64,000 nt of DNA from Candidatus Rariloculaceae bacterium (GTDB lineage: Bacteria; Pseudomonadota; Gammaproteobacteria; Steroidobacterales; Rariloculaceae), in contig OZ253541.1 of NCBI GenBank assembly GCA_965262365.1, forward strand, positions 5,417,648-5,481,647. The letters are read 5' to 3'. The position numbers were made by a program, and so were the translations under genes. The notes beneath the pieces were generated by a model that saw nothing but the letters and a program-made list of their open reading frames with translations, did no database searches and was not told the origin of the DNA. Position 1 is the stretch's first letter. Each line of letters begins with the position of its first letter. Below, piece by piece: positions 559 through 60,936 of this stretch.

Positions 559-598
559 GTAAGCGTTCCGTCAAGGGGGGATCAGCGTTGATCGTACC
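559..598 (+). mobile_element. IS66 left-end stub (40 bp)
   Basis: GTAAGCGTTCCGTCAAGGGGGGATCAGCGTTGATCGTACC closely matches the left end at 7470-7509 and starts with the canonical IS66 GTAA. Confidence 0.8.
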
Positions 599-697
599 GT
601 TCCGTCAAGCGGGGATAGATGACGGCCATTTTTGGCCGATCCAGTGAGCGCGGTGCAAGCGAGGGAGGGCTGATAACCTGATCGGTGTTCGGATAAC

Positions 698-1363
698 CTA
701 CCGGTTGAGGGTTCGTTGCCAGTCTTTGCGCAGGGGGCGAAGCCAGATGTCCTTTTTCGGCTTGTCGTACTGTTTGTAGCGGGCGTTGTCGATCACCAGC
801 GGCAGGTTCTTCTGGCGCAGCGCCGGCGTCCAGCCGATGAAGCGGTCGCGCGGGGCGAGTGTCCGTGCCGCGGTGGAGAAGCCGAGCAGGGCCAGCAGGC
901 GGCCGTGGCGGTCATGGACGGTGTAGCGCATCTGCGCGCCGACCAGGGTCTTGTAGCCGAGGTAGTGGTAGCGGGCGATGAACGCGTTCCACTGCTTGCT
1001 CTGGGGAGTGGCCCCGAGCACGGTTCGCAGGCGGATCGGACGCGCCTCATTGAGGGTGACGGGCGGCGGTTCCAGCGGCGCGTCGGTTTCGGGCCCGAAC
1101 GTGATTGGCACGGCCGGGTTGCGTCCCCACTTCGGCGGCGGCAGGGCGATGCGCCCGTCACGGTGCATGGCCAGCATGGCGACCCGCGCCATCATGTCCT
1201 TGAGCCCGCCGTCGGGCTTGTACCAGCCGATGCGCCGGCAGAACTCTTTCGACAGGGCGAAGCGGTTCAGGGCGGGGAGCCCGGCGATGAGCGCGCGCAG
1301 CAGCGCCATTTCCTCCACCGTGAAGTCGCGTCCGTAATAGCGGCACTCCATTTCGGCGGTCAT
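698..1363 (-). pseudogene. DUF4338 protein with an in-frame 72-aa internal deletion
   Basis: Translation equals 9871..10752 except ...IDNAR|YKQYDK... Confidence 0.85.
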
Positions 1364-1620
1364 CCCGGGGCCATCAGGGTCCGTCGGCGCGCCTGGCTCA
1401 TCGACCACGGCAGCCACTCGGACAGGTCCGGTGGCGCCCGCCCGCCATTGGCCGCGCACGCGTTAAGCCACTCGTGCAGCCAAGCGCGCACATTGAGGCC
1501 GTTCAACGCGAGCGTGCCCACGACCGAGTACATCATCGCGGTGAACCGCGCGCCGGCCTCGCTGTCGGAGCCGAACGACAGGCGCCGTCCGATAACCGCG
1601 CTTCGAAGCGTGCGCTCGGC
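1360..1620 (-). pseudogene. IS66 transposase C-terminal fragment
   Basis: AERTLRSAVIGRRLSFGSDSEAG...TLMAPG, same as the end of 7625..9874. Confidence 0.85.
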
Positions 1621-1810
1621 CACGTTATCCCGGAACCCGGATTATTCCGGAATCGATGTCTCGGGAGCCGACTGTCCCTGCAATGTCGGGTGCTAAATGC
1701 CTGAATAATCACAAACTGTCTTCTCCTGCTGGCCTGCTTGCCAGCGTACGCAGCGGGACACCGCCCGTCTGGCGCCGGTTGATCGCGAACCTTCACACGA
1801 TGACCCGGTC

Positions 1811-2470
1811 ATGGAAACGGTGGAGCGGTATGAGCGCTTCCTCATCGACGAACGCGGCGCAAGCCCGAAAACGATACTGGCCTATCTCTCGACCGTCCGT
1901 GACTTTCTTGGCGACTGTTTCGAGTCCAGGTGCCAGGATCTTGGATCTCTGGATTGCAGTCACATCAACGGGTTCATACGTCAGTCCTGCCGGACCCAAT
2001 GCTCGGCGACGACACGGGTCCATGTTGCCGCCCTGCGCAGTTTCGCGCGGTATCTGTATCGATCCGGGATCGTCACTGCCGATATTGCCGACGGAATGTG
2101 CCGGGTCAGCACCTGGCGCCTGGCGAACTTGCCGACGGCGTTGGCACCGGACCAAGTCGAAGCGATGCTCGCCAGCTGCAACCGCGAGACGGCCACGGGC
2201 CGGCGCGATTACAGCGTTCTCATGTTGCTGGCGCTCCTTGGGTTGCGCGCTTGCGAGGTCGTCCGTCTGACGCTGGACGATATCGACTGGTCCAACGGCA
2301 AGATTACCGTGGCCGGAAAAGGCGGTCGGCACGACGTTTTGCCGCTGCCCCACCAGGTCGGCGAAGCGCTGGCGGCGTATCTGCAGGGCGGTCGACCGAT
2401 TTGTGCGACACGACGTGTGTTTGTGCGGCGTTATGCCCCTGTAAACGGCTTTCAGTCATCGGCCGCGGTT
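1811..2470 (+). pseudogene. Truncated tyrosine recombinase (RIT/XerD-like)
   Basis: Integrase SAM-like N-part, ...GRRDYSVLMLLALLGLRACEVVRLTLDDIDW...GKGGRHDVLPL; breaks off before the HxxR and Tyr boxes. Confidence 0.75.
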
Positions 2471-3009
2471 GCCCTAAGTGCCAGAGCCTGTCGCAAACTC
2501 GATGGGTCGAGCGCCAGTGCGCCGATCTGCTGGACATCGGCTACTGGCACGTGGTCTTCACCTTGCCCCATCGGCTCAGGTCCTGGCCCTACACTCACAA
2601 GACCGCCATCGGCAACCATCGGCTGATCGACTTCGACGGCGAACACGTGCGGTTCCGATGGCGCGACTACGCCGACGGCAACCGGCGAAAGGTCATGCGG
2701 CTGGAGGTCGACGAGTTCATTCGCCGCTTCCTCCTGCATGTGCTGCCGCGAGGCTTCACCCGCCTGCGCCATTACGGGTTGCTCGCCAATCGCAACCGAT
2801 CCCGGAAGCTTGCCCAATGCCGTGCGTTGCTTGGACAACCGGAGGCCGAACCGCCGAAGGAGGAAACCGCGCAGGAACTGATGTTGCGTGTGACCGGAAT
2901 CGACATTGCCGTGTGCCGGTACTGCGGACGCGGCCAGCTGCGACACCTTGCCATCCTCAAACCGGGTACCGACGCAGTGGTGCCGGCGCCGACGGCGAGA
3001 CCGCCATGA
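2466..3009 (+). pseudogene. IS91-like (Y2) transposase relic with internal deletion
   Basis: RGCPKCQ zinc motif, YWHVVFTLPH joined directly to YTHKTAIGNHRL...FIRRFLLHVLPRGFTRLRHYGLLANR. Confidence 0.8.
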
Positions 3010-3291: not shown

Positions 3292-6200
3292 TTATCTCAA
3301 CGCTGACTCGAGTCGTGGAAGCGTGTTCGGGTGTGCGGGTAGCATCCATTGGATGTCACGGGAGACGCCGGTGAACTCAATTGGCGTGGCTTCCGCGCGC
3401 TGATCTGTCAGTTCTCCGTCCTTGTACCAACCCAGGAGATAGCGCGTGATTTGGTCATCTGACCACCAGAGAGATATAGCATCAGCCGTCCCAACGGCGC
3501 CGGCAGTATATGTGATGGTGAGGTACAGTGGGTCGGTCCATTGTCCTTTCGATCCGGTAGCAAATGGCCACCGATCCGAGTCATCTTCCCACGAAACATC
3601 TTCCAAATAATCTCCCCAATAAAGGTAGAGAAACTCCCCAACGATCGGAGGATTCGCTTCCATGTCCGGCCAGAGCATTTGTATCGTTACCTGGTCAAAG
3701 GCGGGAATCTGCGACGGCAGCCATTCTTCGAATTCATCGTAATAGTCATCGACGCCGATGCCGAATGCTGCCTCGAATGCCTGCTGCCAGGTTGAATTCT
3801 CACCGAGTAACTTCCAGAACTCCACATAAGCGTTTTCCGACGCTTGCTCGGCCAGGAATTTTGCTGCAACGAAACTCAAGGCATAGTAGTAGATTTCACC
3901 GAACGTACATCTGGCATCCGAATACTCTGCCGTTCTGGCCAAATCACCGTAATTGAGTTCGTCGTTGACTTGGGACCAACCCAAGTCTTTGTAGGGGGAG
4001 TACCTGTCACCCACGAAGGGGCGTCGACCCGGCCTGGTTGGGGTGTACTTGTAATCGGCATAGGAAGCGAGCCCTTCCACCAGCCACTGGGGCGCTACGG
4101 CCTGGGTGTCAGTGTGCCATCCAATCTCGCCGTTCTGTAATTGCGAAAATCCCGAAGCAAGTTGTCCCTGGAGAACATGGAAGTACTCGTGAGCGATATG
4201 GTGTTTGAGTGAAGTGAACGAATAAGCCCCCAATCCGTACATGAGCGTAATGACGGCACTGCCCTGGGCGGAAGATGTAACCCACGCATCCGTATATTTA
4301 GCGTCGGGGTGATAGAAGTACCTGAGATCTGTTCCGACTACATCCCCGTATACCGGTGCCAGCGTTTCGTAATTCGTACCGACCAGAACGGTGAAGTTCG
4401 TTGCCGTAACACCAAACTTATCGGCGAAGTACCTTCGGCTGTACTCCAGCTCTTCGCGCAACATGGTCTGCTCGATATCCGGTACATCTCCTGCAAACAT
4501 CCATGTCACAGTGGAATCGATATACTCAAACGGCTTCTCCACGGAGACGCGCACCGCGTAGGAACAGTTGTTTGCGGTATCGGACTCCCCAGACACTGGG
4601 TCGACACAAGCTCCGAAGTAGTAGGTTCCAGAGGTTGACGGGATTGTCAGGCTGATCGACTCATGGCTGGTACCTCCGGGGGAGAGTGCGCTCAACGCGA
4701 TTGTGCCGACCTCCGTGTCCGTCGTTGAAATCGTGAAGTCCGTCGAGCGATAGTAGCGTAGCGTAGTGGCGGCGGACTGACCGGTGCCCTGGTTGCGGAC
4801 GGTCGCATAGTAAGTGATCGAGGCCCCCGGTTCAGGATTGTTGTCGCTAACCGATGTGGACACGACCACCAGGTCCGGCCCGGAAACCTGACCGCAGGTG
4901 ACGTCGTCATCCAGCGGGCATGCGTCATCCGTGTCGGAAACGCCGTCATTGTCATCGTCCGTGTCGGCGTTGTTGCCGATCCCGTCGCCATCCGTGTCGA
5001 CGGACTCGCCCGGATCCTGCGGGAAGGCGTCGTTCGCGTTGGACACGCCGTCGTTGTCGTCGTCCCCGTCGACCATCCCGCCGCCACCTGTCGTGGGCGG
5101 TGTCGCGGGCGCCTCGGTGCTGCCGGCCACCCGATCCATCCGCCACACCCCTTCGCCTTGGTGCGAGGCCTCAAAATCGTAGACCCGCCCGTTGATCGTC
5201 TGGTTGGTGATCCGGATCCTGATACCGGCCAGGAACGTCAGGAACGAACCCCGGCCGCGTTCATTGACGCTGAACGCGTCCGTCGTGCCGGGGTAGGTGC
5301 AGCTCTGCCCAATGCTCACCGACAGACTCACGTAGCATTCGCCCAACGAACCTGTCTCGGTCGTGCCGGTGTTCACCGTGATGGTGAAGCTGAGCGTGTC
5401 GGTGTCGTCATCCTCATCCGTCACGGTGTACGTCATGGCATGGGTGCCCGCCGTGGTCGGTGTGCCGGTGAGTTGGCGCGCGGTGGCGTTGAACGTCAAC
5501 CCGGCCACGTTGGGCGAGAGACTGTAGGCCAGGGTGCCGTTCCCGCCGCTCGCCTCCGGCAGCGTCAATGCATCGATCGCGGTGCCAACGGTGTAGGTCT
5601 GGTCACCCGGGCCGCTTACACTGCGGAAACTCGGGAATCGATCCACTTCGCCCGAACCCGCCGCACGCCCGGTCACGGTGCCTTGGGTCACTGCCCCATT
5701 CACAATGCTGCATCCCGCTGGCGATGTGCAGGTGTATCTCGTGCCATCGCTCAGCTCGAAGTACTCACCGTCATTCAACTCGATCGTCGTGCCGGCGCCG
5801 GTGGCTGTGACACTTCCACCGGACGCCACTGCTGGAAAGAAAAATCCGGATGTGGGCACGCCGGGGAGCATGTCATCAACCCCATACGTGGTGTCGGTGA
5901 CCTCACCGCCGTCATCCTCGTCATCCTCAATGGACCAGCTCCCGCCCAGCCAGGTCCCGTCCGCCGGGTAATCGCTGCCGGTGCAGTGAGAGGCGAACCA
6001 GCCCGCCGTGTGCGTGGAAAAGTACAGGTTCGCCGCGCATTCGTCGCCGTCGTCGTAGGTGAGCGTCAATCGGCCCGCGTCTGGGCCGATGCCTTCGTAG
6101 CCGTAGCTGCCGGTGTAGGTCGTTGAGGTCCCATCGACCTCGCCGGTCTCGCTGAACTCATCGCCCGTCATGGCATTGAGCGTGAAGCGGTCGCTACCGC

Positions 6201-7119
6201 TAAGGTAGACAACGTCGATCCCGACGAAGCGTTCGTTGAACGCCTCAAGATCCGCCGGCGCCGCTCCCGGCACCGCAGTCGTTGAAAGGTTGTTCCAGTA
6301 CCCGGCGGTGGCCGCGACGATATTCACCACCTGAAGCGGCTGGTCCGACGACACCGTCAGCCGCCACTTGCCGGTGCCGGCGCCCAACTGGCCCGTGATG
6401 GCGGTGGCACCCGCCTCCAGTTGCTGCGCGGTCAGCGTCTGAGCACCGCCCGCCGCAAGCGTCAGCGTCACGTCTCCCCCGGTGGCCGCGGCACCGCCGT
6501 CGTCGCGCCCCGCAATCGTCACCGAAGCCGCCGCATCGCCCGGATTGATCAGCCGCAGCCGGCTCACCTGGGTGGCGTCGCTGGCGGGGTTGAAGATCGG
6601 CACTTCATAGGTGTAACCGTCCGACCCGTCAGTGGCCGCCGCGCCGCGCACCGTATCGTGCATCGCGCTCAGTGTGCCGTCGGCAGCGCGAACGAAGGCC
6701 AGGGGCACGATGGAAAGATCCGTCTCGATCTGAAGGCGCGCATCGCCCACGTCCGTGCCGATACCCCCGGTCAATCCCAGGGTCGCGTTACCGGAGGCAA
6801 GGTCGGTGGCCGTGAACTGCACCGCCGCCGAGGCGTTCAGCGTGAAGGTGGCGGGACCGGATCGTGTGCCGGCGTCATCGATGGCGTAGATCTCCACCGT
6901 GCCGGACTCGTCCGTGCCGTTGAGAATCCGCAGCACCCCCTGCGGCTCGCTCGATGTGCCCGCCGGCGCCAACAGCGGCACCGTGTAGTGCTCGGCTTGC
7001 GCCGCCGAAGCAAAAAACAGCAGACCCGCGAGGACAAGGCGTCGGAAAATCCTGCTCTTAATTTTGATAAGCCTTCCCGGCCTGCGGCGAGTCCATGCAG
7101 CGGTCAATTTGCGGAACAT
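3292..7119 (-). CDS. Large secreted modular protein: duplicated N-terminal beta domains, putative Ig (He_PIG-like), thrombospondin type-3-like Ca repeats, CARDB, C-terminal HExxH zinc metallopeptidase-like domain
   Basis: Signal-like RRLVLAGLLFFASAAQA; DGDDDNDGVSNANDAFPQDP/DTDGDGIGNNADTDDDNDG; PDLVVVSTSVSDNNPEPG...VRNQG; HHIAHEYFHVLQ...WLVEGLASY. Start uncertain (7158 or 7119). Confidence 0.8.
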   Translation of the reverse strand: MFRKLTAAWTRRRPGRLIKIKSRIFRRLVLAGLLFFASAAQAEHYTVPLLAPAGTSSEPQGVLRILNGTDESGTVEIYAIDDAGTRSGPATFTLNASAAVQFTATDLASGNATLGLTGGIGTDVGDARLQIETDLSIVPLAFVRAADGTLSAMHDTVRGAAATDGSDGYTYEVPIFNPASDATQVSRLRLINPGDAAASVTIAGRDDGGAAATGGDVTLTLAAGGAQTLTAQQLEAGATAITGQLGAGTGKWRLTVSSDQPLQVVNIVAATAGYWNNLSTTAVPGAAPADLEAFNERFVGIDVVYLSGSDRFTLNAMTGDEFSETGEVDGTSTTYTGSYGYEGIGPDAGRLTLTYDDGDECAANLYFSTHTAGWFASHCTGSDYPADGTWLGGSWSIEDDEDDGGEVTDTTYGVDDMLPGVPTSGFFFPAVASGGSVTATGAGTTIELNDGEYFELSDGTRYTCTSPAGCSIVNGAVTQGTVTGRAAGSGEVDRFPSFRSVSGPGDQTYTVGTAIDALTLPEASGGNGTLAYSLSPNVAGLTFNATARQLTGTPTTAGTHAMTYTVTDEDDDTDTLSFTITVNTGTTETGSLGECYVSLSVSIGQSCTYPGTTDAFSVNERGRGSFLTFLAGIRIRITNQTINGRVYDFEASHQGEGVWRMDRVAGSTEAPATPPTTGGGGMVDGDDDNDGVSNANDAFPQDPGESVDTDGDGIGNNADTDDDNDGVSDTDDACPLDDDVTCGQVSGPDLVVVSTSVSDNNPEPGASITYYATVRNQGTGQSAATTLRYYRSTDFTISTTDTEVGTIALSALSPGGTSHESISLTIPSTSGTYYFGACVDPVSGESDTANNCSYAVRVSVEKPFEYIDSTVTWMFAGDVPDIEQTMLREELEYSRRYFADKFGVTATNFTVLVGTNYETLAPVYGDVVGTDLRYFYHPDAKYTDAWVTSSAQGSAVITLMYGLGAYSFTSLKHHIAHEYFHVLQGQLASGFSQLQNGEIGWHTDTQAVAPQWLVEGLASYADYKYTPTRPGRRPFVGDRYSPYKDLGWSQVNDELNYGDLARTAEYSDARCTFGEIYYYALSFVAAKFLAEQASENAYVEFWKLLGENSTWQQAFEAAFGIGVDDYYDEFEEWLPSQIPAFDQVTIQMLWPDMEANPPIVGEFLYLYWGDYLEDVSWEDDSDRWPFATGSKGQWTDPLYLTITYTAGAVGTADAISLWWSDDQITRYLLGWYKDGELTDQRAEATPIEFTGVSRDIQWMLPAHPNTLPRLESALR

Positions 7120-7624
7120 GCTCACCAACGACGAATACATCGTGTAGGGATTGCGCACGATATTGACGAACCGGGCCGCCGGTCAAAAGCTCCAACCATG
7201 CGGCACTCACCGTGGCGATGTGCGCGACACGACCGCGTCCCTCGCCGTCGAACCCATTCCATCGCCTCCATCCTCGGCTCGCGACGAACGTCCGGGCGTG
7301 TTCCGGAACCGAAGATCCCCGTCCACCGGCTTTCCCGGTGCGCGCGCGCGCGAGCGATGAAAAAATACACACGAAAGCCATAGTAGAAGAATGGCGCGCC
7401 GATGTATCTCCCCAACATTGGGGGAGAGGAGGCGTTTTTTTTTCGAACGGTTTCAGTCGGTTACGGAGAGGAACCGTTCCGTCAAGCGGGGATCGGCGTT
7501 GATCGTACCCTATTTTTCCGTAATCGAGCTGGCTGGCGGCTTCGAGTATTTTGTGACCGGTGCCGGTGAGAAAATCGCTTTGGGGCGCTGGTAACACGAT
7601 CGGCATTGCGGTATCGTTGCGCGC

Positions 7625-9874
7625 ATGGCGATTCGCGCAGAGGATGTCCGCACAGAACTGACGCTGATTGAGCGTGCCGAGGGGACCGGGCCGCAGCCTA
7701 AGGCGGTGCCGGCGGGTGAGCGGCGCGACTACCGTTTGCTGTATGAGCGGGAGGTGGCGCGGGCGGGCGAAGCCGAAGCCCGGGCGAAAGCGGCCGAAGC
7801 GCGAGCCGAAGAGTTTCGCTGTGCGGAGGTCAGGACCCGTTTCGAATCCGCTTCCTGGAAGCATCGGTACGAGCTTTCCCGGAGGAAGCTGACGAGAGTC
7901 GTCGAGCAGACGAAGGCAATCCGGGGCACGGCGAACAACGCGCAGTCGTTGCAGGGATCGCAGCACCGGAAAGACACGATCAAGTCGCTGCGCACGGAAC
8001 GCGGCGGGCTGCGCAAGGAGGTGACCCGGCTGAACCGGGACCTCACTCGGCTGGAGACGCGTCTGGCCCGCCAGACGGAGAAGTCGGAGACCCACAAGAA
8101 AACCATCCTGCGGCTTTACAAAGAGGACGTTCGGCTTCGTAGGGAGCTGAGGGGATTACGCGATCAAGAGGATGTAGTTGGGTCGCTGTGCGACGAGGTG
8201 TACTGGTTGCGTTATGCCCTGAAGAGGTCGGAGGCCGGGAAGGAGGCGTTGAAAGCCCGGCTGGTCAAGCTTCGCGCCACCGGGGCGACGCTTTCGAAGT
8301 TGCCGTCCGACGAGGTCGCACAGCTGCGCAAGGCGCTGAGGCGGTCGCGGCGCCAGAAGACGACGATCAAGTCACTGTACAAGGAGAACGCCCGGCTGCG
8401 CAGGGCGGCGCAGGTGTCGCAAAGCCGCAAGGAGGCCTTGAGCGCGGAGTTAGCGGAGGTTCGTGCGAGTCGGGCCGTATTGTCGAAGTGGCTGTACGGG
8501 CGCAGGAGCGAGCAACAGGACAAGTTCCGCTCGGCGCGTCGGCGCGGCCAGCAGCCTGGCGCTCCCGGCCATGGCCGCACCCCGCGACCGGGGCTTGAGG
8601 AACGGATCGAAATCCACCAACCGCCGGCGGAAGCATGCGTGTGTGGCCGCTGCGGTACCCCGTATGTGGCCAACGGCGAGCGTTCCACCACGATCGTCGA
8701 AATCGACGTGAAGGCGCATACACGGCGCATCGTCCGTCCCCGCTGGCGCCGGCGGTGCGACTGTGCCGATTCCCCGCCGGATGTTATCGCGGCAACGCCG
8801 GACCGGGTGTTCGCCCGCGCGGCCTACGGCACCAGCGTGTGGACGCATGTTCTGTTCGAGCGCTACCTGTGCAATCGGCCGCCGAACGGGGTGGCGATGT
8901 CGTTGTCGCATCAGGGACTGCCCATCTCCGCCGGTACGCTGGCCCGCGGGCTGGCGCGGCTCGCGCCGCTGTTCCAGCGGCTGGCGCTGGCGATGCTGGA
9001 GCACCAGAACGAGGCGGCTGTGCGCCACGGCGACGAGACCGGCTGGCGTATCCAGGCGCTGCGCCAGGCGGGACGTTCCGGGCGCGCCTGGCTGTGGGTC
9101 TCGGTGACCGAGCATGCCGTGTACTTCCACATCGATCCCTCGCGCAGCGCCGAGGCGGCGCTGAAGGTGTTCGGCGGTGCCGTGGGCGTGCAGGTCCTGG
9201 TGGTCGACCGCTACTCCACTTACAAGAAGCTGGCCCGCGTGCTCGAGGGCCGGGTGATCCTGGCGTGGTGCTGGGCGCACCAACGCCGCGACTATATCGA
9301 CTGCGCCGCCGGGCAGGTGGAACTGAGCGAATGGTGTCAGGCATGGTTGGGGCGCATCGCCGCAATCTACCGGCTGAACAAGACGCGGCTGTCGCATTAC
9401 GAGTCCAGTGCCGAGAGACAGAACGAGGCGTTCGACACCGCGCAGCGGGCGCTGGAAACCGAGGTCAAGGGTCTGTTCGCCACCGTCGAACGGGAACTGG
9501 CGGGGCTTGACGACACCGCACCCGAGGCCGGGCCGCTGCGCTCGCTGCTGAAGCATCGCGATGGCCTGAGCGTGTTCCTCGAACGGCCCGAGGTGCCCAT
9601 GGACAATAATTTTGCCGAGCGCACGCTTCGAAGCGCGGTTATCGGACGGCGCCTGTCGTTCGGCTCCGACAGCGAGGCCGGCGCGCGGTTCACCGCGATG
9701 ATGTACTCGGTCGTGGGCACGCTCGCGTTGAACGGCCTCAATGTGCGCGCTTGGCTGCACGAGTGGCTTAACGCGTGCGCGGCCAATGGCGGGCGGGCGC
9801 CACCGGACCTGTCCGAGTGGCTGCCGTGGTCGATGAGCCAGGCGCGCCGACGGACCCTGATGGCCCCGGGATGA
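7625..9874 (+). CDS. IS66-family transposase (TnpC-like) with a long N-terminal coiled coil
   Basis: LYGRRSEQ, RRRGQQPGAPGHGR, CxCxxC zinc finger, RHGDETGW, LVVDRYSTY, WCWAHQRR, DNNFAERTLR. Confidence 0.9.
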   Translation: MAIRAEDVRTELTLIERAEGTGPQPKAVPAGERRDYRLLYEREVARAGEAEARAKAAEARAEEFRCAEVRTRFESASWKHRYELSRRKLTRVVEQTKAIRGTANNAQSLQGSQHRKDTIKSLRTERGGLRKEVTRLNRDLTRLETRLARQTEKSETHKKTILRLYKEDVRLRRELRGLRDQEDVVGSLCDEVYWLRYALKRSEAGKEALKARLVKLRATGATLSKLPSDEVAQLRKALRRSRRQKTTIKSLYKENARLRRAAQVSQSRKEALSAELAEVRASRAVLSKWLYGRRSEQQDKFRSARRRGQQPGAPGHGRTPRPGLEERIEIHQPPAEACVCGRCGTPYVANGERSTTIVEIDVKAHTRRIVRPRWRRRCDCADSPPDVIAATPDRVFARAAYGTSVWTHVLFERYLCNRPPNGVAMSLSHQGLPISAGTLARGLARLAPLFQRLALAMLEHQNEAAVRHGDETGWRIQALRQAGRSGRAWLWVSVTEHAVYFHIDPSRSAEAALKVFGGAVGVQVLVVDRYSTYKKLARVLEGRVILAWCWAHQRRDYIDCAAGQVELSEWCQAWLGRIAAIYRLNKTRLSHYESSAERQNEAFDTAQRALETEVKGLFATVERELAGLDDTAPEAGPLRSLLKHRDGLSVFLERPEVPMDNNFAERTLRSAVIGRRLSFGSDSEAGARFTAMMYSVVGTLALNGLNVRAWLHEWLNACAANGGRAPPDLSEWLPWSMSQARRRTLMAPG

Positions 9875-10752
9875 CCGCCGAAATGGAGTGCCGCTATTAC
9901 GGACGCGACTTCACGGTGGAGGAAATGGCGCTGCTGCGCGCGCTCATCGCCGGGCTCCCCGCCCTGAACCGCTTCGCCCTGTCGAAAGAGTTCTGCCGGC
10001 GCATCGGCTGGTACAAGCCCGACGGCGGGCTCAAGGACATGATGGCGCGGGTCGCCATGCTGGCCATGCACCGTGACGGGCGCATCGCCCTGCCGCCGCC
10101 GAAGTGGGGACGCAACCCGGCCGTGCCAATCACGTTCGGGCCCGAAACCGACGCGCCGCTGGAACCGCCGCCCGTCACCCTCAATGAGGCGCGTCCGATC
10201 CGCCTGCGAACCGTGCTCGGGGCCACTCCCCAGAGCAAGCAGTGGAACGCGTTCATCGCCCGCTACCACTACCTCGGCTACAAGACCCTGGTCGGCGCGC
10301 AGATGCGCTACACCGTCCATGACCGCCACGGTCGCCTGCTGGCCCTGCTCGGCTTCTCCACCGCGGCACGGACACTCGCCCCGCGCGACCGCTTCATCGG
10401 CTGGACGCCGGCGCTGCGCCAGAAGAACCTGCCGCTGGTGATCGACAACGCCCGCTTCCTGATCCTGCCCTGGATCCGCATCCCCAACCTGGCCTCGCAC
10501 ATCCTGTCCGTCGTCTGCCGACAACTGCCCGGGCAGTGGACCGAGCGCTACAACACCTCGCCGGTGTTGATCGAAACCTTCGTGGAGACCCCGCGCTTCA
10601 CAGGCGCCACCTACAAAGCCTCGGGGTGGGTCAACGTCGGCACCACCCAAGGACGCGGGCGCTACGACCGCTACAAACAGTACGACAAGCCGAAAAAGGA
10701 CATCTGGCTTCGCCCCCTGCGCAAAGACTGGCAACGAACCCTCAACCGGTAG
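9871..10752 (+). CDS. DUF4338 (Druantia DruA-like) domain protein
   Basis: ATGA overlap with the transposase stop; FIARYHYLGY, NARFLILPW, NLASHIL, ETFVETPRFTGATYKASGW, GTTQGRGRYD. Confidence 0.8.
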   Translation: MTAEMECRYYGRDFTVEEMALLRALIAGLPALNRFALSKEFCRRIGWYKPDGGLKDMMARVAMLAMHRDGRIALPPPKWGRNPAVPITFGPETDAPLEPPPVTLNEARPIRLRTVLGATPQSKQWNAFIARYHYLGYKTLVGAQMRYTVHDRHGRLLALLGFSTAARTLAPRDRFIGWTPALRQKNLPLVIDNARFLILPWIRIPNLASHILSVVCRQLPGQWTERYNTSPVLIETFVETPRFTGATYKASGWVNVGTTQGRGRYDRYKQYDKPKKDIWLRPLRKDWQRTLNR

Positions 10753-10855
10753 GTCATCCGAACACCGATCAGGTTATCAGCCCTCCCTCGCTTGCACCGC
10801 GCTCACTGGATCGGCAAAAATCTCCGTCATCTATCCCCGCTTGACGGAACGGTTA

Positions 10856-11669
10856 TTGCGCCAGGGAAAGCCCTGGAGAGGAGAATGCTATGAATTGAAA
10901 CTGAAACCTCTCGTAGCGATCCAGCGGGTTCGACTCCCGCCCGGCAAAGGCGCAGCCCGCCAGCCGGAAGCAAGTCTTGCGTGGCGCGCGGCAACGCCCG
11001 TCGTGAAGCGTAGACAGCAGGTGATGAAGCGGCGGAGGAAGCCTCGAAATCGGAATCGATGACGCCTTCATTGTTAATCGTGTGGGGGCAGCACCGGAAG
11101 CGCCGCTATTGGTGAGGCGCAACGGGTCGTCCGGGGTCGTGGACCGGCGCAGAGTCACGGAATGGATCGCCTGGGAACCTGGGAGGTCCTGCTCACGCCC
11201 ACGGGCAACGACGCTGGAAGGGGATTGCCAGCATAAATCCAGACCCCGGCCCGTCGCCGGGCCTGCACGGCGGCGGGACCGCCCGATGCGGACACGAATT
11301 CCGACAGGCACCCGTGGAACCGGCTGGCGAAAACAATAAGCCGAAGGACATGCGAGGGCAGGAAGTCGTAGCGCCTTGATAGTACCTGTGAAGGCGGGGA
11401 ACCGTGGCCCTCGGGACCCGCTGGAGGGAAGCGGGGCGTCACTTGTACAGAGCCACTGATGGGAAACGCTGGAGGAAACGCTGAGTTCCACAAACACGTA
11501 CACGAAACAGCAGTGGATAGCCGAACAGGCGAGGGAGCGGTCTTCCTCAACCTGCGGATCAAGGACGAAACTCCTTGAGCGAACCTGTCAGGTGAGGAAC
11601 CGAGTGCGTCAATCGCGCACGCTCGGGTCTGCGGGGGGAGGGGCTCGGTAACGACCCCTCCTACCCGGC
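10856..11669 (+). ncRNA. ORF-less group II intron (IIB-like), copy 1
   Basis: 5' TTGCG; EBS1 loop TAATCGT at 11075-11081; domain V GAACCGAGTGCGTCAATCGCGCACGCTCGGGTC at 11597-11629; domain VI with GTAA loop and bulged A, ending CCTACCCGGC; repeated at 59081-59894. Confidence 0.9.
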
Positions 11670-11785
11670 CGCTCAAAGAGCCGACATGAGAGCGCTGTAA
11701 TTGGAATAAATCTGTATGCGGTTTGCTTACGAAGCAAAGTGGCCAAGAAGACTTAGCGACTAACCACGCCAATCTTTTTCCCATA

Positions 11786-58860: not shown

Positions 58861-58985
58861 GACAACTCCCGCGCACGACGCGTGATGATGCAATCGACAG
58901 CCTATCTTATAGGGCGCGAGCGTCTCTGGAATATGTTTGGGAAGGGAGGTTGGAAATGCGGATGCCGCAGAGTGCGAAACAGGGG

Positions 58986-60936
58986 TCAGTCGATCGGCTT
59001 GCCATCAGCATCGTATCTGGCCAGTTGCCGGATCCCGCTCGATATCGACAAGGTACCATCCAGGTATCGACGAACGATTATTGCGCCAGGGAAAGCCCTG
59101 GAGAGGAGAATGCTATGAATTGAAACTGAAACCTCTCGTAGCGATCCAGCGGGTTCGACTCCCGCCCGGCAAAGGCGCAGCCCGCCAGCCGGAAGCAAGT
59201 CTTGCGTGGCGCGCGGCAACGCCCGTCGTGAAGCGTAGACAGCAGGTGATGAAGCGGCGGAGGAAGCCTCGAAATCGGAATCGATGACGCCTTCATTGTT
59301 AATCGTGTGGGGGCAGCACCGGAAGCGCCGCTATTGGTGAGGCGCAACGGGTCGTCCGGGGTCGTGGACCGGCGCAGAGTCACGGAATGGATCGCCTGGG
59401 AACCTGGGAGGTCCTGCTCACGCCCACGGGCAACGACGCTGGAAGGGGATTGCCAGCATAAATCCAGACCCCGGCCCGTCGCCGGGCCTGCACGGCGGCG
59501 GGACCGCCCGATGCGGACACGAATTCCGACAGGCACCCGTGGAACCGGCTGGCGAAAACAATAAGCCGAAGGACATGCGAGGGCAGGAAGTCGTAGCGCC
59601 TTGATAGTACCTGTGAAGGCGGGGAACCGTGGCCCTCGGGACCCGCTGGAGGGAAGCGGGGCGTCACTTGTACAGAGCCACTGATGGGAAACGCTGGAGG
59701 AAACGCTGAGTTCCACAAACACGTACACGAAACAGCAGTGGATAGCCGAACAGGCGAGGGAGCGGTCTTCCTCAACCTGCGGATCAAGGACGAAACTCCT
59801 TGAGCGAACCTGTCAGGTGAGGAACCGAGTGCGTCAATCGCGCACGCTCGGGTCTGCGGGGGGAGGGGCTCGGTAACGACCCCTCCTACCCGGCCGCGAG
59901 AGTTGGCCAACCTGCACTTCAGACGATCGCCAGGCAGCCTCAACAAGCGGCTCTTGAAGCGCACGCAATTGTCCTTGCGCACGACCCTCCAGTACTGCTC
60001 ACACAGGATGTCGACCAATTGAGAGGGATCCGTACAAGGTTCGAACGCAGAACCCTCTCGTTGAGCGACCTGCTGGAATTCCTCGTTGTATGCGCGCTGA
60101 TAGATACTTGCCAGGTAGCGGTTGGCTGCGGCAAATTCGGTGATCCCTGCAGCCGCAAGTTCCGACGGTAACCGGTTCATATGAGTTTGAAAGACGCGCT
60201 GGCAGCGTGTGCGAACCTGCGTGGAGCGAGTTGCGACCAACTTGATCCCAAGCTGCATCATTGCCCGCTCAATCTGGGTGAGTTTCCGGGGACCTTGTGT
60301 TTCGGCCGCCTCCGCCTTCCCTTTGTATCGATACTGTGACGTACGATCAGTGTAAAGCGAGCAGAAAAACCCCTTTCGCTCGAGCACGTCACGGACGCCG
60401 ACAAGGCTGCTCCGGGTACCTGCCTGTTCGCAGACGAACATCGAATAGTGCTCACTCGTGGCGTCGTCCAATGTCACCACCAGATCGCAGTGACGCCCAG
60501 CCAGCCACTCGTGTCTGGAACTATCCTGGTGCAGCCTCAGGCCGGGTAGCGACGCGCGATCAAAGCGCAAACGGTGCAGCCCCCGCCGCGGCAGTTTTTT
60601 AACAGCCCCTGCGTCCTGCAGTTGCATCCGCACCCAGTTGTAGCTGCGCTGGCCGCCTTCGTAGCGGTACCAGGCGTAGAATTGTTTGACGTTCCAGCCT
60701 TCGTGTTGCTTGTTGTATGCGTTGACCACGTCTGCAATCTCGTCCAGCGGCGCCCGACGTGGAGAGCCCCGTAACTGGCGTCTATCGATCAATCCCTCCG
60801 AACCGCCGCTTTCGAAACGATGAACGTAACGACGAAACGTTCTATCGCTTACACCAAGCAATTTGGCCGCTACGGTCTGTGTAATCCTACGGGACTTCCA
60901 GGCTCTGTACAGACTTTCAAACTTCATGATCCGCAA
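58986..60936 (-). pseudogene. ISNCY-family transposase interrupted by an antisense group II intron (coding parts 60936-59895 and 59080-58986; 378 aa rejoined)
   Basis: HTH AAKLLGVSDRTFRR, LHQDSSRHEWL, TLDDATSE, YTDR; rejoined C-terminus [37 protein letters not shown]. Confidence 0.85.
59081..59894 (+). ncRNA. ORF-less group II intron (IIB-like), copy 2
   Basis: Same 814 nt as 10856-11669 (matching ORF-track translations); EBS1 at 59300-59306, domain V at 59822-59854. Confidence 0.9.

What the first reader, a model, noticed from the sequence alone, without database searches (positions are those of the whole stretch)
10856..11669. ORF-less group II intron, present twice and both times inside another mobile element
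Seen: an 814-nt sequence with group II domains V/VI occurs at 10856-11669 and 59081-59894 with no differences I could find and no RT gene. Removing it restores an IS66 terminus at site 1 and an in-frame ISNCY transposase at site 2. Its ends (UUGCG...CCGGC) deviate from GUGYG...AY. Established: ORF-less introns can be mobilised in trans by a related intron-encoded protein, and some introns (e.g. RmInt1) home into IS elements. Inference: a recently active non-autonomous retroelement is parasitising and disabling two unrelated IS families, one at its terminal repeat, a target I do not know from described cases.
Basis: partly seen in the sequence, partly recalled or inferred. Interest (0 to 1): 0.85.

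Follow-up and report, generated by a model that had tools for sequence, protein, structure and literature searches.

The report
Recently mobile ORF-less group II intron
An 814-base retroelement of the group II intron type has lost its own reverse transcriptase gene yet sits in 11 near-identical copies in this sponge-symbiont genome, most likely copied by the enzyme of related full-length introns; it is a clear new example of a rare but already described kind of element.

Summary
Window 10856-11669 and 59081-59894 are identical 814-nt group II introns with no RT gene. The exact ends (UUGCG...CCGGC) are fixed by three lines of evidence: a 100 % identical empty paralogous site, empty-site alleles in public runs, and EBS1-IBS1 and gamma-gamma' covariation.

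The genome holds 11 copies (10 identical, one with one mismatch). It also holds six intact RT-encoding relatives (about 90 % identical in DI-DIVa), two truncated ones and one 5'-truncated one. The ORF-less form is an internal deletion of the RT gene that keeps the DIVa hairpin.

All copies lie at ...ACGR-TTA|C and all point the same way as the replication fork. This fits En-independent retrohoming into the lagging-strand template, with the RT supplied in trans.

Four copies lie one base inside IS66-family terminal repeats, which are the usual homing site of the whole clade. One lies antisense in an ISNCY transposase gene. Six lie in ordinary genes, so the element is not purely an IS parasite.

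Both ideas have precedents: RmInt2 homes into ISRm17 repeats, and Thermosynechococcus ORF-less introns are mobilised in trans.

One feature is less expected. The whole clade has a non-consensus core: 5' U, penultimate G, and AAC instead of AGC in domain V.

The parts
10856..11669 (+). ORF-less group II intron, copy 1 (814 nt, UUGCG...CCGGC)
   Evidence: Identical to copy 2. Rfam D1D4-6 at 125 bits. An empty-site allele that skips exactly 10856-11669 is present in run X6.
59081..59894 (+). ORF-less group II intron, copy 2
   Evidence: Identical to copy 1. An empty-site allele that skips exactly 59081-59894 is present in runs X6, X7 and X9, with 255, 118 and 73 nt on the shorter side.
11075..11081 (+). 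EBS1 (UAAUCGU) in a hairpin loop of domain I; pairs with the 5' exon ACGRUUA
   Evidence: The loop sequence covaries with the last 6-7 exon bases in the ORF-less form, two resident full-length variants and about 30 relatives. The hairpin stem shows compensatory changes.
11368..11368 (+). gamma nucleotide (G in GAAGUC-G-UAG, J2/3) that pairs with the last intron base C11669
   Evidence: G pairs with a final C in 30 sequences and U with a final A in 9, with no exceptions.
11453..11516 (+). DIVa hairpin (CCACUG...CAGUGG) holding the start region of the lost RT gene; presumed binding site for the RT/maturase
   Evidence: Predicted helix with compensatory changes at alignment columns 630-693. The 11451-11536 segment that contains it is 97.7 % identical to the resident full-length intron. 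Its role as a binding site is inferred from other group II introns.
11460..11534 (+). Remnant of the first ~25 codons of the intron-encoded protein (WETLEETLSSTNTYTKQQWIAEQAR)
   Evidence: Aligns with the reading frame of the full-length relatives.
11597..11629 (+). Domain V, with AAC where the consensus has the AGC triad and a 5-nt loop instead of GNRA
   Evidence: Infernal alignment to Intron_gpII flags the triad G position as a non-standard pair. The same feature is seen throughout the clade.
11631..11669 (+). Domain VI with a bulged branch-point A at 11663, six bases before the 3' end
   Evidence: Rfam alignment and fold. The stem shows G-C to A-U changes between variants.
7470..10855 (+). 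IS66-family element (transposase 7625-9874, DruA/DUF4338-like ORF 9775-10752). Its right terminal repeat ends ...GGAACGGTTA at 10855 and its last base is C11670, beyond the intron.
   Evidence: NF033517 IS66 transposase at 271 bits. PF14236 at E 5e-38. Ends were compared with the sister copy at genome 253620-257201, which has the target duplication GTAATTTC.
59895..60936 (-). ISNCY-family transposase gene, N-terminal ~363 codons, cut by the antisense intron
   Evidence: The rejoined frame matches NF033594 at 262 bits over residues 27-379.
58986..59080 (-). ISNCY-family transposase gene, last ~31 codons
   Evidence: Same rejoined frame.

Best explanation
The element is a deletion derivative of an En-minus, IIB-like group II intron. 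It kept the whole ribozyme (domains I-III, the DIVa hairpin, V and VI) and lost about 1.2 kb of its RT/maturase gene.

Inferred steps: it is transcribed and bound by the RT/maturase made by the related full-length introns in the same chromosome. It then excises. [quoted passage not shown] The borrowed RT copies it into DNA, primed by nascent lagging-strand DNA.

The best match to this target is the outer end of IS66-family terminal repeats (...GGAACGGTTA|C), which is the ancestral homing site of the clade. The same short word also occurs in ordinary genes, and these have been hit too.

Shown here: the fold, the exact ends, the pairing rules, the copy number and near-identity of the copies, presence/absence among strains, the strand bias, and the presence of intact related RT genes.

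Inferred only: splicing activity, which RT acts, and that the interrupted ISs are disabled.
For: Fold: Rfam D1D4-6 at 125 bits. The clade alignment gives 169 predicted pairs, 57 of them with compensatory double changes.

Ends: a 100 % identical empty paralogue at genome 321899-322198. Empty alleles that skip exactly 814 nt (TT..GC) occur in runs X6, X7 and X9. EBS1-IBS1 covariation and gamma-gamma' covariation, 30 G/C and 9 U/A with no exception.

Recent spread: 11 copies, 10 identical and one with one mismatch. Each has different flanks that share only ...ACGR-TTA|C. The ORF-less form was not found in 40 related genomes, nor as an exact junction word in 185,579 species genomes.

Helper: six intact 449-codon frames match TIGR04416 at 347 bits (cut-off 300) in introns about 90 % identical over DI-DIVa. 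The DIVa segment is 97.7 % identical.

No endonuclease domain: the IEP is 419 aa, the model covers residues 13-381, and Pfam finds RVT_1 only.

Strand bias: with dnaA and the local skew switch at 4.55 Mb and the terminus at 1.20 Mb, all 11 ORF-less and all 8 full-length or fragment copies point with the fork. Among GAACGRTTAC sites, 6 of 14 co-oriented sites are occupied and 0 of 12 anti-oriented ones (hypergeometric 0.013). In two ISs with a target at both ends, only the co-oriented end is occupied.

Precedents: RmInt1 with its ORF deleted works with the IEP supplied in trans (PMC3035460). ORF-less introns of T. elongatus are mobilised in trans (PMC2882425). RmInt1 shows a lagging-strand bias (PMC5894124).
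Against: No experiment or RNA data from this organism shows splicing or mobility, and no RNA run holds the host genes.

Domain V departs from the consensus triad and falls below Rfam's gathering score (35.8 against 40). The 5' and 3' ends are non-consensus.

No RT-encoding relative is closer than about 91 %. The direct parent is therefore unsampled or lost, and the resident RT might not serve this RNA. RmInt1's IEP fails to mobilise the 88 %-identical Sr.md.I1 (PMC4615759).

The strand-bias count depends on where the origin is placed. With the global cumulative-skew minimum at 4.07 Mb instead, 17 of 19 copies fit.

Some perfect co-oriented targets remain empty.
Confidence: 0.85

Rival explanations
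1. The burst was driven by the element's own parent intron, whose RT is no longer in this genome. The ORF-less copies are now immobile relics, and the resident 90 %-related RT does not serve them.
For: No RT-encoding relative is closer than 90.8 % in this genome or in 80 related loci. DV-DVI is only 82 % identical to the resident introns, yet within one base of the same region in some alphaproteobacterial MAG introns. Cross-mobilisation can fail between close relatives (PMC4615759).
Against: Ten of 11 copies are identical, so the burst is very recent, and no trace of a closer RT gene remains. The presumed RT-binding segment around DIVa is 97.7 % identical to the resident intron. Six intact resident RT genes are available.
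Confidence: 0.1
2. The copies spread at the DNA level, by gene conversion, segmental duplication, or being carried along by transposing ISs, without reverse splicing.
For: Three copies lie in paralogous genes and four in related IS ends, where recombination between repeats is conceivable.
Against: The identical stretch stops exactly at the intron ends at all 11 sites. Flanks of the paralogous sites differ by 1-11 % while the introns are identical. Unrelated sites (TonB receptor, DUF6152, ISNCY) share only the 7-10 nt exon word that pairs with EBS1. The IS target duplications lie outside the intron plus the terminal C, so the IS inserted first.
Confidence: 0.03
3. The RNA integrates without any protein (protein-free reverse splicing, as shown for P.li.LSU.I2), or acts as an RNA-only DNA-cutting ribozyme like the ORF-less IIC HYERs, rather than as an RT-dependent retroelement.
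For: Protein-free full reverse splicing into DNA and DNA hydrolysis have been reported for other group II RNAs (bioRxiv 10.1101/2024.08.31.610620).
Against: Fixing an RNA insertion as DNA still needs a reverse transcriptase. The element always co-occurs with related RT genes. It keeps the DIVa hairpin. It has an EBS1-based IIB-like target rule, not the IIC features of HYERs.
Confidence: 0.02

Closest known systems
[quoted passage not shown]
   Same: Both insert inside IS terminal inverted repeats, so each IS offers two oppositely oriented targets and one is always on the lagging-strand template. Both have relaxed specificity with ectopic sites, an IEP without an endonuclease domain, and several copies per genome.
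   Different: RmInt2 encodes its own RT, whereas this element does not. The full-length relatives here are not class D-like: the IEP is 34.5 % identical to the intron IEP found on S. meliloti pSymA, and the Rfam subtype is D1D4-6 rather than D1D4-2. RmInt1-type domain V has the consensus AGC-GUU (PMC3035460); this clade has AAC. The IS family of ISRm17 was not checked.
ORF-less group II introns of Thermosynechococcus elongatus, mobilised in trans by IEPs of related introns (PMC2882425), and the general pattern for bacterial ORF-less introns (PMC4424553)
   Same: Deletion derivatives that lack the RT gene, sit in a genome with closely related RT-encoding introns, and have multiplied to several copies with diverged target specificity.
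   Different: They belong to a different intron lineage (chloroplast-like IIB with an En domain in that system, as I recall, not checked here). The mechanism proposed here is En-independent and fork-linked. Trans-mobilisation was shown experimentally there and is only inferred here.
Engineered RmInt1 delta-ORF donors (0.74 kb) with the IEP supplied in cis or in trans (PMC3035460, PMC4615759)
   Same: Nearly the same architecture and size as the natural 814-nt element: a ribozyme with most of domain IV deleted, dependent on an IEP expressed elsewhere.
   Different: It is a laboratory construct of a class D intron with consensus ends and triad.
HYER ribozymes (ORF-less class IIC introns that cut single-stranded DNA; described in bioRxiv 10.1101/2024.08.31.610620, citing Liu et al. 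2024)
   Same: Compact natural ORF-less group II RNAs.
   Different: HYERs are IIC, with a recognition capacity of about 7 bp. This element is IIB-like, shows retroelement-type copy spread and co-resides with RT genes.

Membership tests
Group II intron (ribozyme) | Homology and fold of domain I | tested here: met
   RF02005 at 125.4 bits against a gathering score of 49. The clade alignment gives 169 predicted pairs, 57 with compensatory changes.
Group II intron (ribozyme) | Domain V hairpin (lower helix, 2-nt bulge, upper helix) followed by domain VI with a bulged A | tested here: met
   The Infernal alignment to RF00029 covers model positions 1-77. Fold. Stems covary between variants. The score of 35.8 is below the gathering score of 40.
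Group II intron (ribozyme) | Consensus catalytic triad AGC (or CGC) in domain V | tested here: not met
   The homologous positions read AAC, with the middle A opposite G, C, A or U across the clade. This is a consensus feature, not what defines homology, so I keep the element in the family as a variant. Sister introns of the same Rfam subtype have AGC.
Group II intron (ribozyme) | Consensus ends 5' GUGYG ... AY 3' | tested here: not met
   The ends are UUGCG...GGC here and U[UAC]GCG...GG[CA] in the clade. The positions are the true splice sites. One report of UUGCG..GU ends exists for another intron (PMC7923331).
Group II intron (ribozyme) | EBS1-IBS1 pairing and gamma-gamma' pairing that define the splice sites | tested here: met
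   Covariation across variants and genomes.
Group II intron (ribozyme) | Self- or protein-assisted splicing through a lariat | not testable with these tools
   The only hint is an RNA-library contig of a relative that joins the last base to the first (11669->10856) in run X23. This could be an intron circle or a tandem copy.
Trans-mobilised ORF-less bacterial group II introns | No intron-encoded protein, with remnants of one | tested here: met
   About 25 N-terminal codons and about 60 nt of the 3' end of the ORF remain.
Trans-mobilised ORF-less bacterial group II introns | Related introns with intact RT/maturase genes in the same genome | tested here: met
   Six frames of 449 codons without stops, TIGR04416 at 347 bits.
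Trans-mobilised ORF-less bacterial group II introns | Multiplication of the ORF-less form itself to new sites | tested here: met
   Eleven sites with distinct flanks. Presence/absence among strains.
Trans-mobilised ORF-less bacterial group II introns | Demonstrated dependence on the helper protein | not testable with these tools
   Needs a genetic assay.
En-independent, replication-fork-linked retrohoming (RmInt1-type mechanism) | IEP without a DNA-binding/endonuclease domain | tested here: met
   The IEP is 419 aa, TIGR04416 covers residues 13-381, Pfam finds RVT_1 only and no HNH.
En-independent, replication-fork-linked retrohoming (RmInt1-type mechanism) | Insertions biased to the lagging-strand template | tested here: met
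   19 of 19 copies are co-oriented with the fork if the origin is at 4.55 Mb, and 17 of 19 if it is at 4.07 Mb. Occupied and empty targets compared.
Bacterial class D introns (RmInt1, RmInt2) | IEP and RNA of the class D type | tested here: not met
   34.5 % IEP identity to the intron on S. meliloti pSymA, and a different Rfam domain I subtype (D1D4-2 against D1D4-6). I did not confirm that this pSymA intron is RmInt1. No formal tree with class references was built.
Class F / g3 introns (Ni.ha.I1) | IEP and RNA of the g3 type | tested here: not met
   37 % identity over the RT domain only. The Rfam subtype is D1D4-4, and Ni.ha.I1 has GUGCG and AGC.

The most novel reading that the evidence does not exclude
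The lineage this element belongs to is found in sponge-associated MAGs of several phyla and in Bradyrhizobium, Mesorhizobium and Labrys. It would be a naturally mobile group II intron clade whose catalytic core departs from the near-invariant consensus at three places at once: 5' U instead of G, penultimate G instead of A, and AAC instead of AGC/CGC in domain V, with the middle A usually unpaired. Its sister group of the same Rfam subtype is fully canonical. If this has not been described, the 814-nt ORF-less form is a compact natural test-bed for how the group II (and, by analogy, U6) active site tolerates loss of the triad G.U pair. In addition, the clade as a whole would be specialised on IS66-family terminal repeats.
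Probability: 0.3. Interest if true: 0.65.

Novelty: new member of a known kind. Interest (0 to 1): 0.45.

Why it matters
[quoted passage not shown] Cases that have clearly multiplied after losing their RT gene are rarer still.

This one is well documented from sequence alone. It has exact ends, pairing rules, presence/absence among strains, a strand bias that points to fork-linked retrohoming, and a helper candidate in the same chromosome. It therefore adds a second natural system, next to Thermosynechococcus, for studying how non-autonomous introns live off related autonomous ones. It also adds a second case, next to RmInt2, of introns that home into IS terminal repeats and may curb IS spread.

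The non-consensus active-site sequence of the whole clade deserves a ribozyme chemist's look. The finding does not reveal a new kind of element.

Tried and rejected
(1) I looked for a closer RT-encoding parent in the genome, in 40 related genomes and among 80 loci from 185,579 species genomes. Nothing was above about 91 %.

(2) I scanned species genomes for the exact ORF-less deletion junction and found no match. The metagenome scan was not used.

(3) I tried to assign the IEP to a named class. PDB relatives do not discriminate. Simon et al. 2008 is not held. Toro 2013 and its tables list Bradyrhizobium introns of classes D and g3 whose sizes do not fit. Ni.ha.I1 (g3) and a S. meliloti pSymA intron turned out to be other subtypes. 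The class is left unassigned.

(4) I looked for in-vivo splicing. No RNA run holds the host genes. Sponge metatranscriptomes hold only relatives of the intron.

(5) I considered GGUUCGACUCC (window about 10926-10936) as EBS2 pairing with exon CGAAC. I rejected it because the hairpin is invariant in relatives whose exons lack CGAAC. EBS2 and EBS3 were not assigned.

(6) I considered that the TTA before the intron belongs to it. This was rejected by the IS target duplications, the empty sites and the EBS1 pairing.

(7) A literature search for an AAC triad found nothing. This is weak evidence of absence, because many papers are not in the library.

Full report
**Observation.** Aligning 10756-11769 with 58981-59994 shows perfect identity over 820 nt (10853-11672 and 59078-59897) and unrelated sequence on both sides. 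Rfam's group-II-D1D4-6 model matches both copies (10931-11146 and 59156-59371) at 125.4 bits, E 3.6e-35. A more permissive scan places domains V and VI at 11595-11669 (Intron_gpII, 35.8 bits, E 3.9e-5), just under the gathering score of 40. No reverse-transcriptase frame is present.

**Exact ends.** The whole genome is one 6.03-Mb contig at 62 % G+C, and the window is C1:5417648-5481647. It holds 11 copies, 10 identical and one with a single mismatch. Every copy is preceded by TTA and followed by C.

Four independent lines show that the intron is the 814 nt between them (TTGCG...CCGGC):
- Joining the flanks of the copy at 3.988 Mb gives a sequence 100 % identical over 300 nt to an uninterrupted paralogue at 321899-322198. 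No shifted boundary gives the same join.
- IS66-family copies with 8-bp target duplications (GTAATTTC, GCGGAAAA, GGTGGTAT) end in ...TTAC. The intron therefore sits between the A and the final C, one base inside the element.
- Contigs of public runs from other samples carry the empty sites. A join 59080->59895 ("skips 814, TT..GC") occurs in X6, X7 and X9, with 255, 118 and 73 nt on the shorter side. A join 10855->11670 occurs in X6, with a 29-nt side. Run X1, which matches the window exactly, shows only the filled form.
- RNA pairing rules covary (next paragraph).

**Pairing rules.** The hairpin loop at 11075-11081 (UAAUCGU) is complementary to the exon word ACGRUUA. The two resident full-length variants have UAAGUG and UAACUG in the same loop and sit behind CRCUUA and CAGUUA. 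About 30 relatives from other genomes show matching loop/exon pairs, for example GUUGGG with CCCAGC in Bradyrhizobium. A J2/3 base (G11368) is G whenever the intron ends in C (30 sequences) and U whenever it ends in A (9 sequences), with no exception. This is the gamma-gamma' pair. A consensus fold of 20 diverse members gives 169 pairs, 57 with compensatory double changes.

**What it derives from.**
- Seven further loci match nt 1-686 at about 90 %. Of these, five are complete 2.03-kb introns and two are 3'-truncated; one further copy is 5'-truncated. The complete ones also match DV-DVI at about 82 %.
- The intron-encoded frame matches TIGR04416 (group II RT/maturase) at 348 bits against a cut-off of 300, and Pfam RVT_1. 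It has no endonuclease domain.
- Six such frames are intact, including the one in the 5'-truncated copy. The two 3'-truncated copies keep only the first part of the frame, and one unrelated group II RT lies at 0.78 Mb.
- The ORF-less form keeps the first ~25 codons and the last ~60 nt of the frame, so it is an internal deletion.
- Identity to the resident intron is mosaic: 98.6 % over the first 210 nt, 72 % in the EBS1 hairpin, 75 % in the variable 11171-11360 stretch, 97-98 % from 11361 through the DIVa hairpin, and 82 % in DV-DVI.
- No closer RT-encoding relative was found in 40 related genomes or in 80 loci from other species (best 90.8 %).
- The ORF-less form itself was found only here. 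Sponge metatranscriptomes contain another ORF-less variant lacking 11530-11573.

**Where the copies are.**
- Four copies are in IS66-family terminal repeats: window site 1, 257201, 3554891 and a 235-bp MITE-like derivative at 4411297.
- One copy is antisense in an ISNCY transposase gene (window site 2). The rejoined 394-codon frame matches NF033594 at 262 bits across the junction.
- Three copies are sense insertions in paralogous He_PIG surface-protein genes.
- One copy is a sense insertion in a giant Calx-beta repeat gene.
- One copy is a sense insertion in a DUF6152 gene.
- One copy is antisense in a TonB-dependent receptor gene.

The paralogous flanks differ by 1-11 % while the introns are identical, so these are separate insertions. 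The resident full-length introns sit in the ends of a second, abundant IS66 type (...GTGACCGAACGCTTA|C). In other genomes at least 20 relatives lie next to IS66 transposase or the DruA-like passenger gene. IS66 terminal repeats therefore appear to be the home site of the clade, and the other sites are ectopic matches to the short target.

**Orientation.**
- dnaA lies at 4.542 Mb, next to a local skew switch at 4.55 Mb, and the cumulative skew maximum is at 1.20 Mb. With these as origin and terminus, all 11 ORF-less copies and all 8 full-length or fragment copies point with the replication fork. Their sense strand is therefore the lagging-strand template (two-sided binomial 4e-6).
- With the global skew minimum (4.07 Mb) as origin, 17 of 19 copies fit.
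- Unoccupied GAACGRTTAC words number 8 co-oriented and 12 anti-oriented. All 6 occupied ones are co-oriented (0.013).
- In the IS at 253620-257201 and in the MITE, both ends carry the target but only the co-oriented end is filled.
- In the He_PIG family, three of four intact co-oriented targets are filled. The one intact anti-oriented target (window ~6611) and two mutated targets are empty.

This is the pattern known for En-minus introns such as RmInt1 (PMC5894124).

**Mechanism.** The element most likely works as a non-autonomous retroelement. The RNA is bound by the RT/maturase of the resident relatives and excises. It reverse-splices into single-stranded DNA at forks where EBS1 pairs, and is copied with a nascent lagging-strand primer. 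Sense insertions can in principle be spliced out of the host mRNA. The two antisense insertions are knock-outs. An IS end split one base from its tip is probably unusable by the transposase. All three of these statements are inference.

**Comparison with known cases.**
[quoted passage not shown] Trans-mobilisation is documented in T. elongatus (PMC2882425) and with RmInt1 delta-ORF constructs (PMC3035460).

The present element is thus a new member of a known kind. It is not class D or g3 by the limited tests made, and its class was not determined.

**The unusual core.** All relatives down to about 60 % IEP identity start with U[UAC]GCG, end in GG[CA], and have AAC at the triad position with a variable base opposite the middle A. 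Sister introns of the same Rfam subtype at 53 % IEP identity (L104, L105) have GUGCG, AGC-GUU and a final AC. The review literature gives the triad as AGC or CGC (PMC4424553), and RmInt1 has AGC-GUU (PMC3035460). UUGCG ends have been noted once, for an unrelated intron (PMC7923331). This clade is evidently mobile, so these departures are compatible with function. I could not establish whether they have been described before.

**Limits.** There is no direct evidence of splicing. A contig in a sponge RNA library joins the last base to the first base of a related intron (11669->10856). This fits intron circles but also tandem copies or contaminating DNA. The helper RT is a candidate only. EBS2 and EBS3 were not assigned.

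Noticed in passing
window 7625-10752 (+); also genome-wide: The IS66-family elements here carry a DruA/DUF4338-like ORF (PF14236, E 5e-38) directly after the transposase. About 25 such transposase + DruA-like pairs occur in the genome. The same pair lies upstream of related introns in MAGs of other phyla.
   Followed up: partly
window 563-1628 (-): A partial inverted copy of the site-1 IS (851 nt 100 % and 157 nt 98 % complementary, offset by a 216-nt indel). At 563-612 an inner end lacking TTAC is fused to about 40 nt of the opposite-type end. The site-1 IS itself has a degenerate left tip (GGAA instead of GTAA at 7470) and no target duplication, which suggests rearrangement between IS copies.
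   Followed up: partly
L104, L105 versus L037-L116 and window 11597-11669: Three core changes co-occur in the clade (G1 to U, penultimate A to G, triad AGC to AAC), while sister introns of the same Rfam subtype are fully canonical.
   Followed up: partly
L012:2100-2200 and window 11453-11534: The conserved N-terminal region of the intron-encoded protein follows an in-frame TGA and has no ATG, GTG or TTG before it. A conserved CTG is the only candidate start, and an out-of-frame ATG lies in the DIVa hairpin. The true start codon is unclear.
   Followed up: no
window 11669->10856 in RNA run X23; 11529->11574 in X23 and X24: A sponge metatranscriptome contig joins the 3' end to the 5' end of a related intron (circle or tandem). 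A second ORF-less variant lacking 44 nt at the deletion scar is present in two RNA runs.
   Followed up: partly
window ~6611 (- strand), inside ORF 3292-7158 (He_PIG/CARDB, 1288 aa): A perfect but unoccupied intron target (GGTCGGACGGTTA|C) in a paralogue of the three invaded surface-protein genes. It is oriented against the replication fork.
   Followed up: yes
window 1930-3009 (+): An ORF with IS91-type Y2 transposase and zinc-binding domains (PF04986 E 4.6e-23, PF14319). It is another mobile element between the two inverted IS66 copies.
   Followed up: no
genome 4.10-4.55 Mb (outside the window): GC skew is positive at 4.10-4.40 Mb and negative at 4.40-4.55 Mb, next to dnaA (4.542 Mb). The global skew minimum (4.07 Mb) and dnaA therefore disagree, which probably reflects a recent inversion or translocation near the origin.
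   Followed up: no
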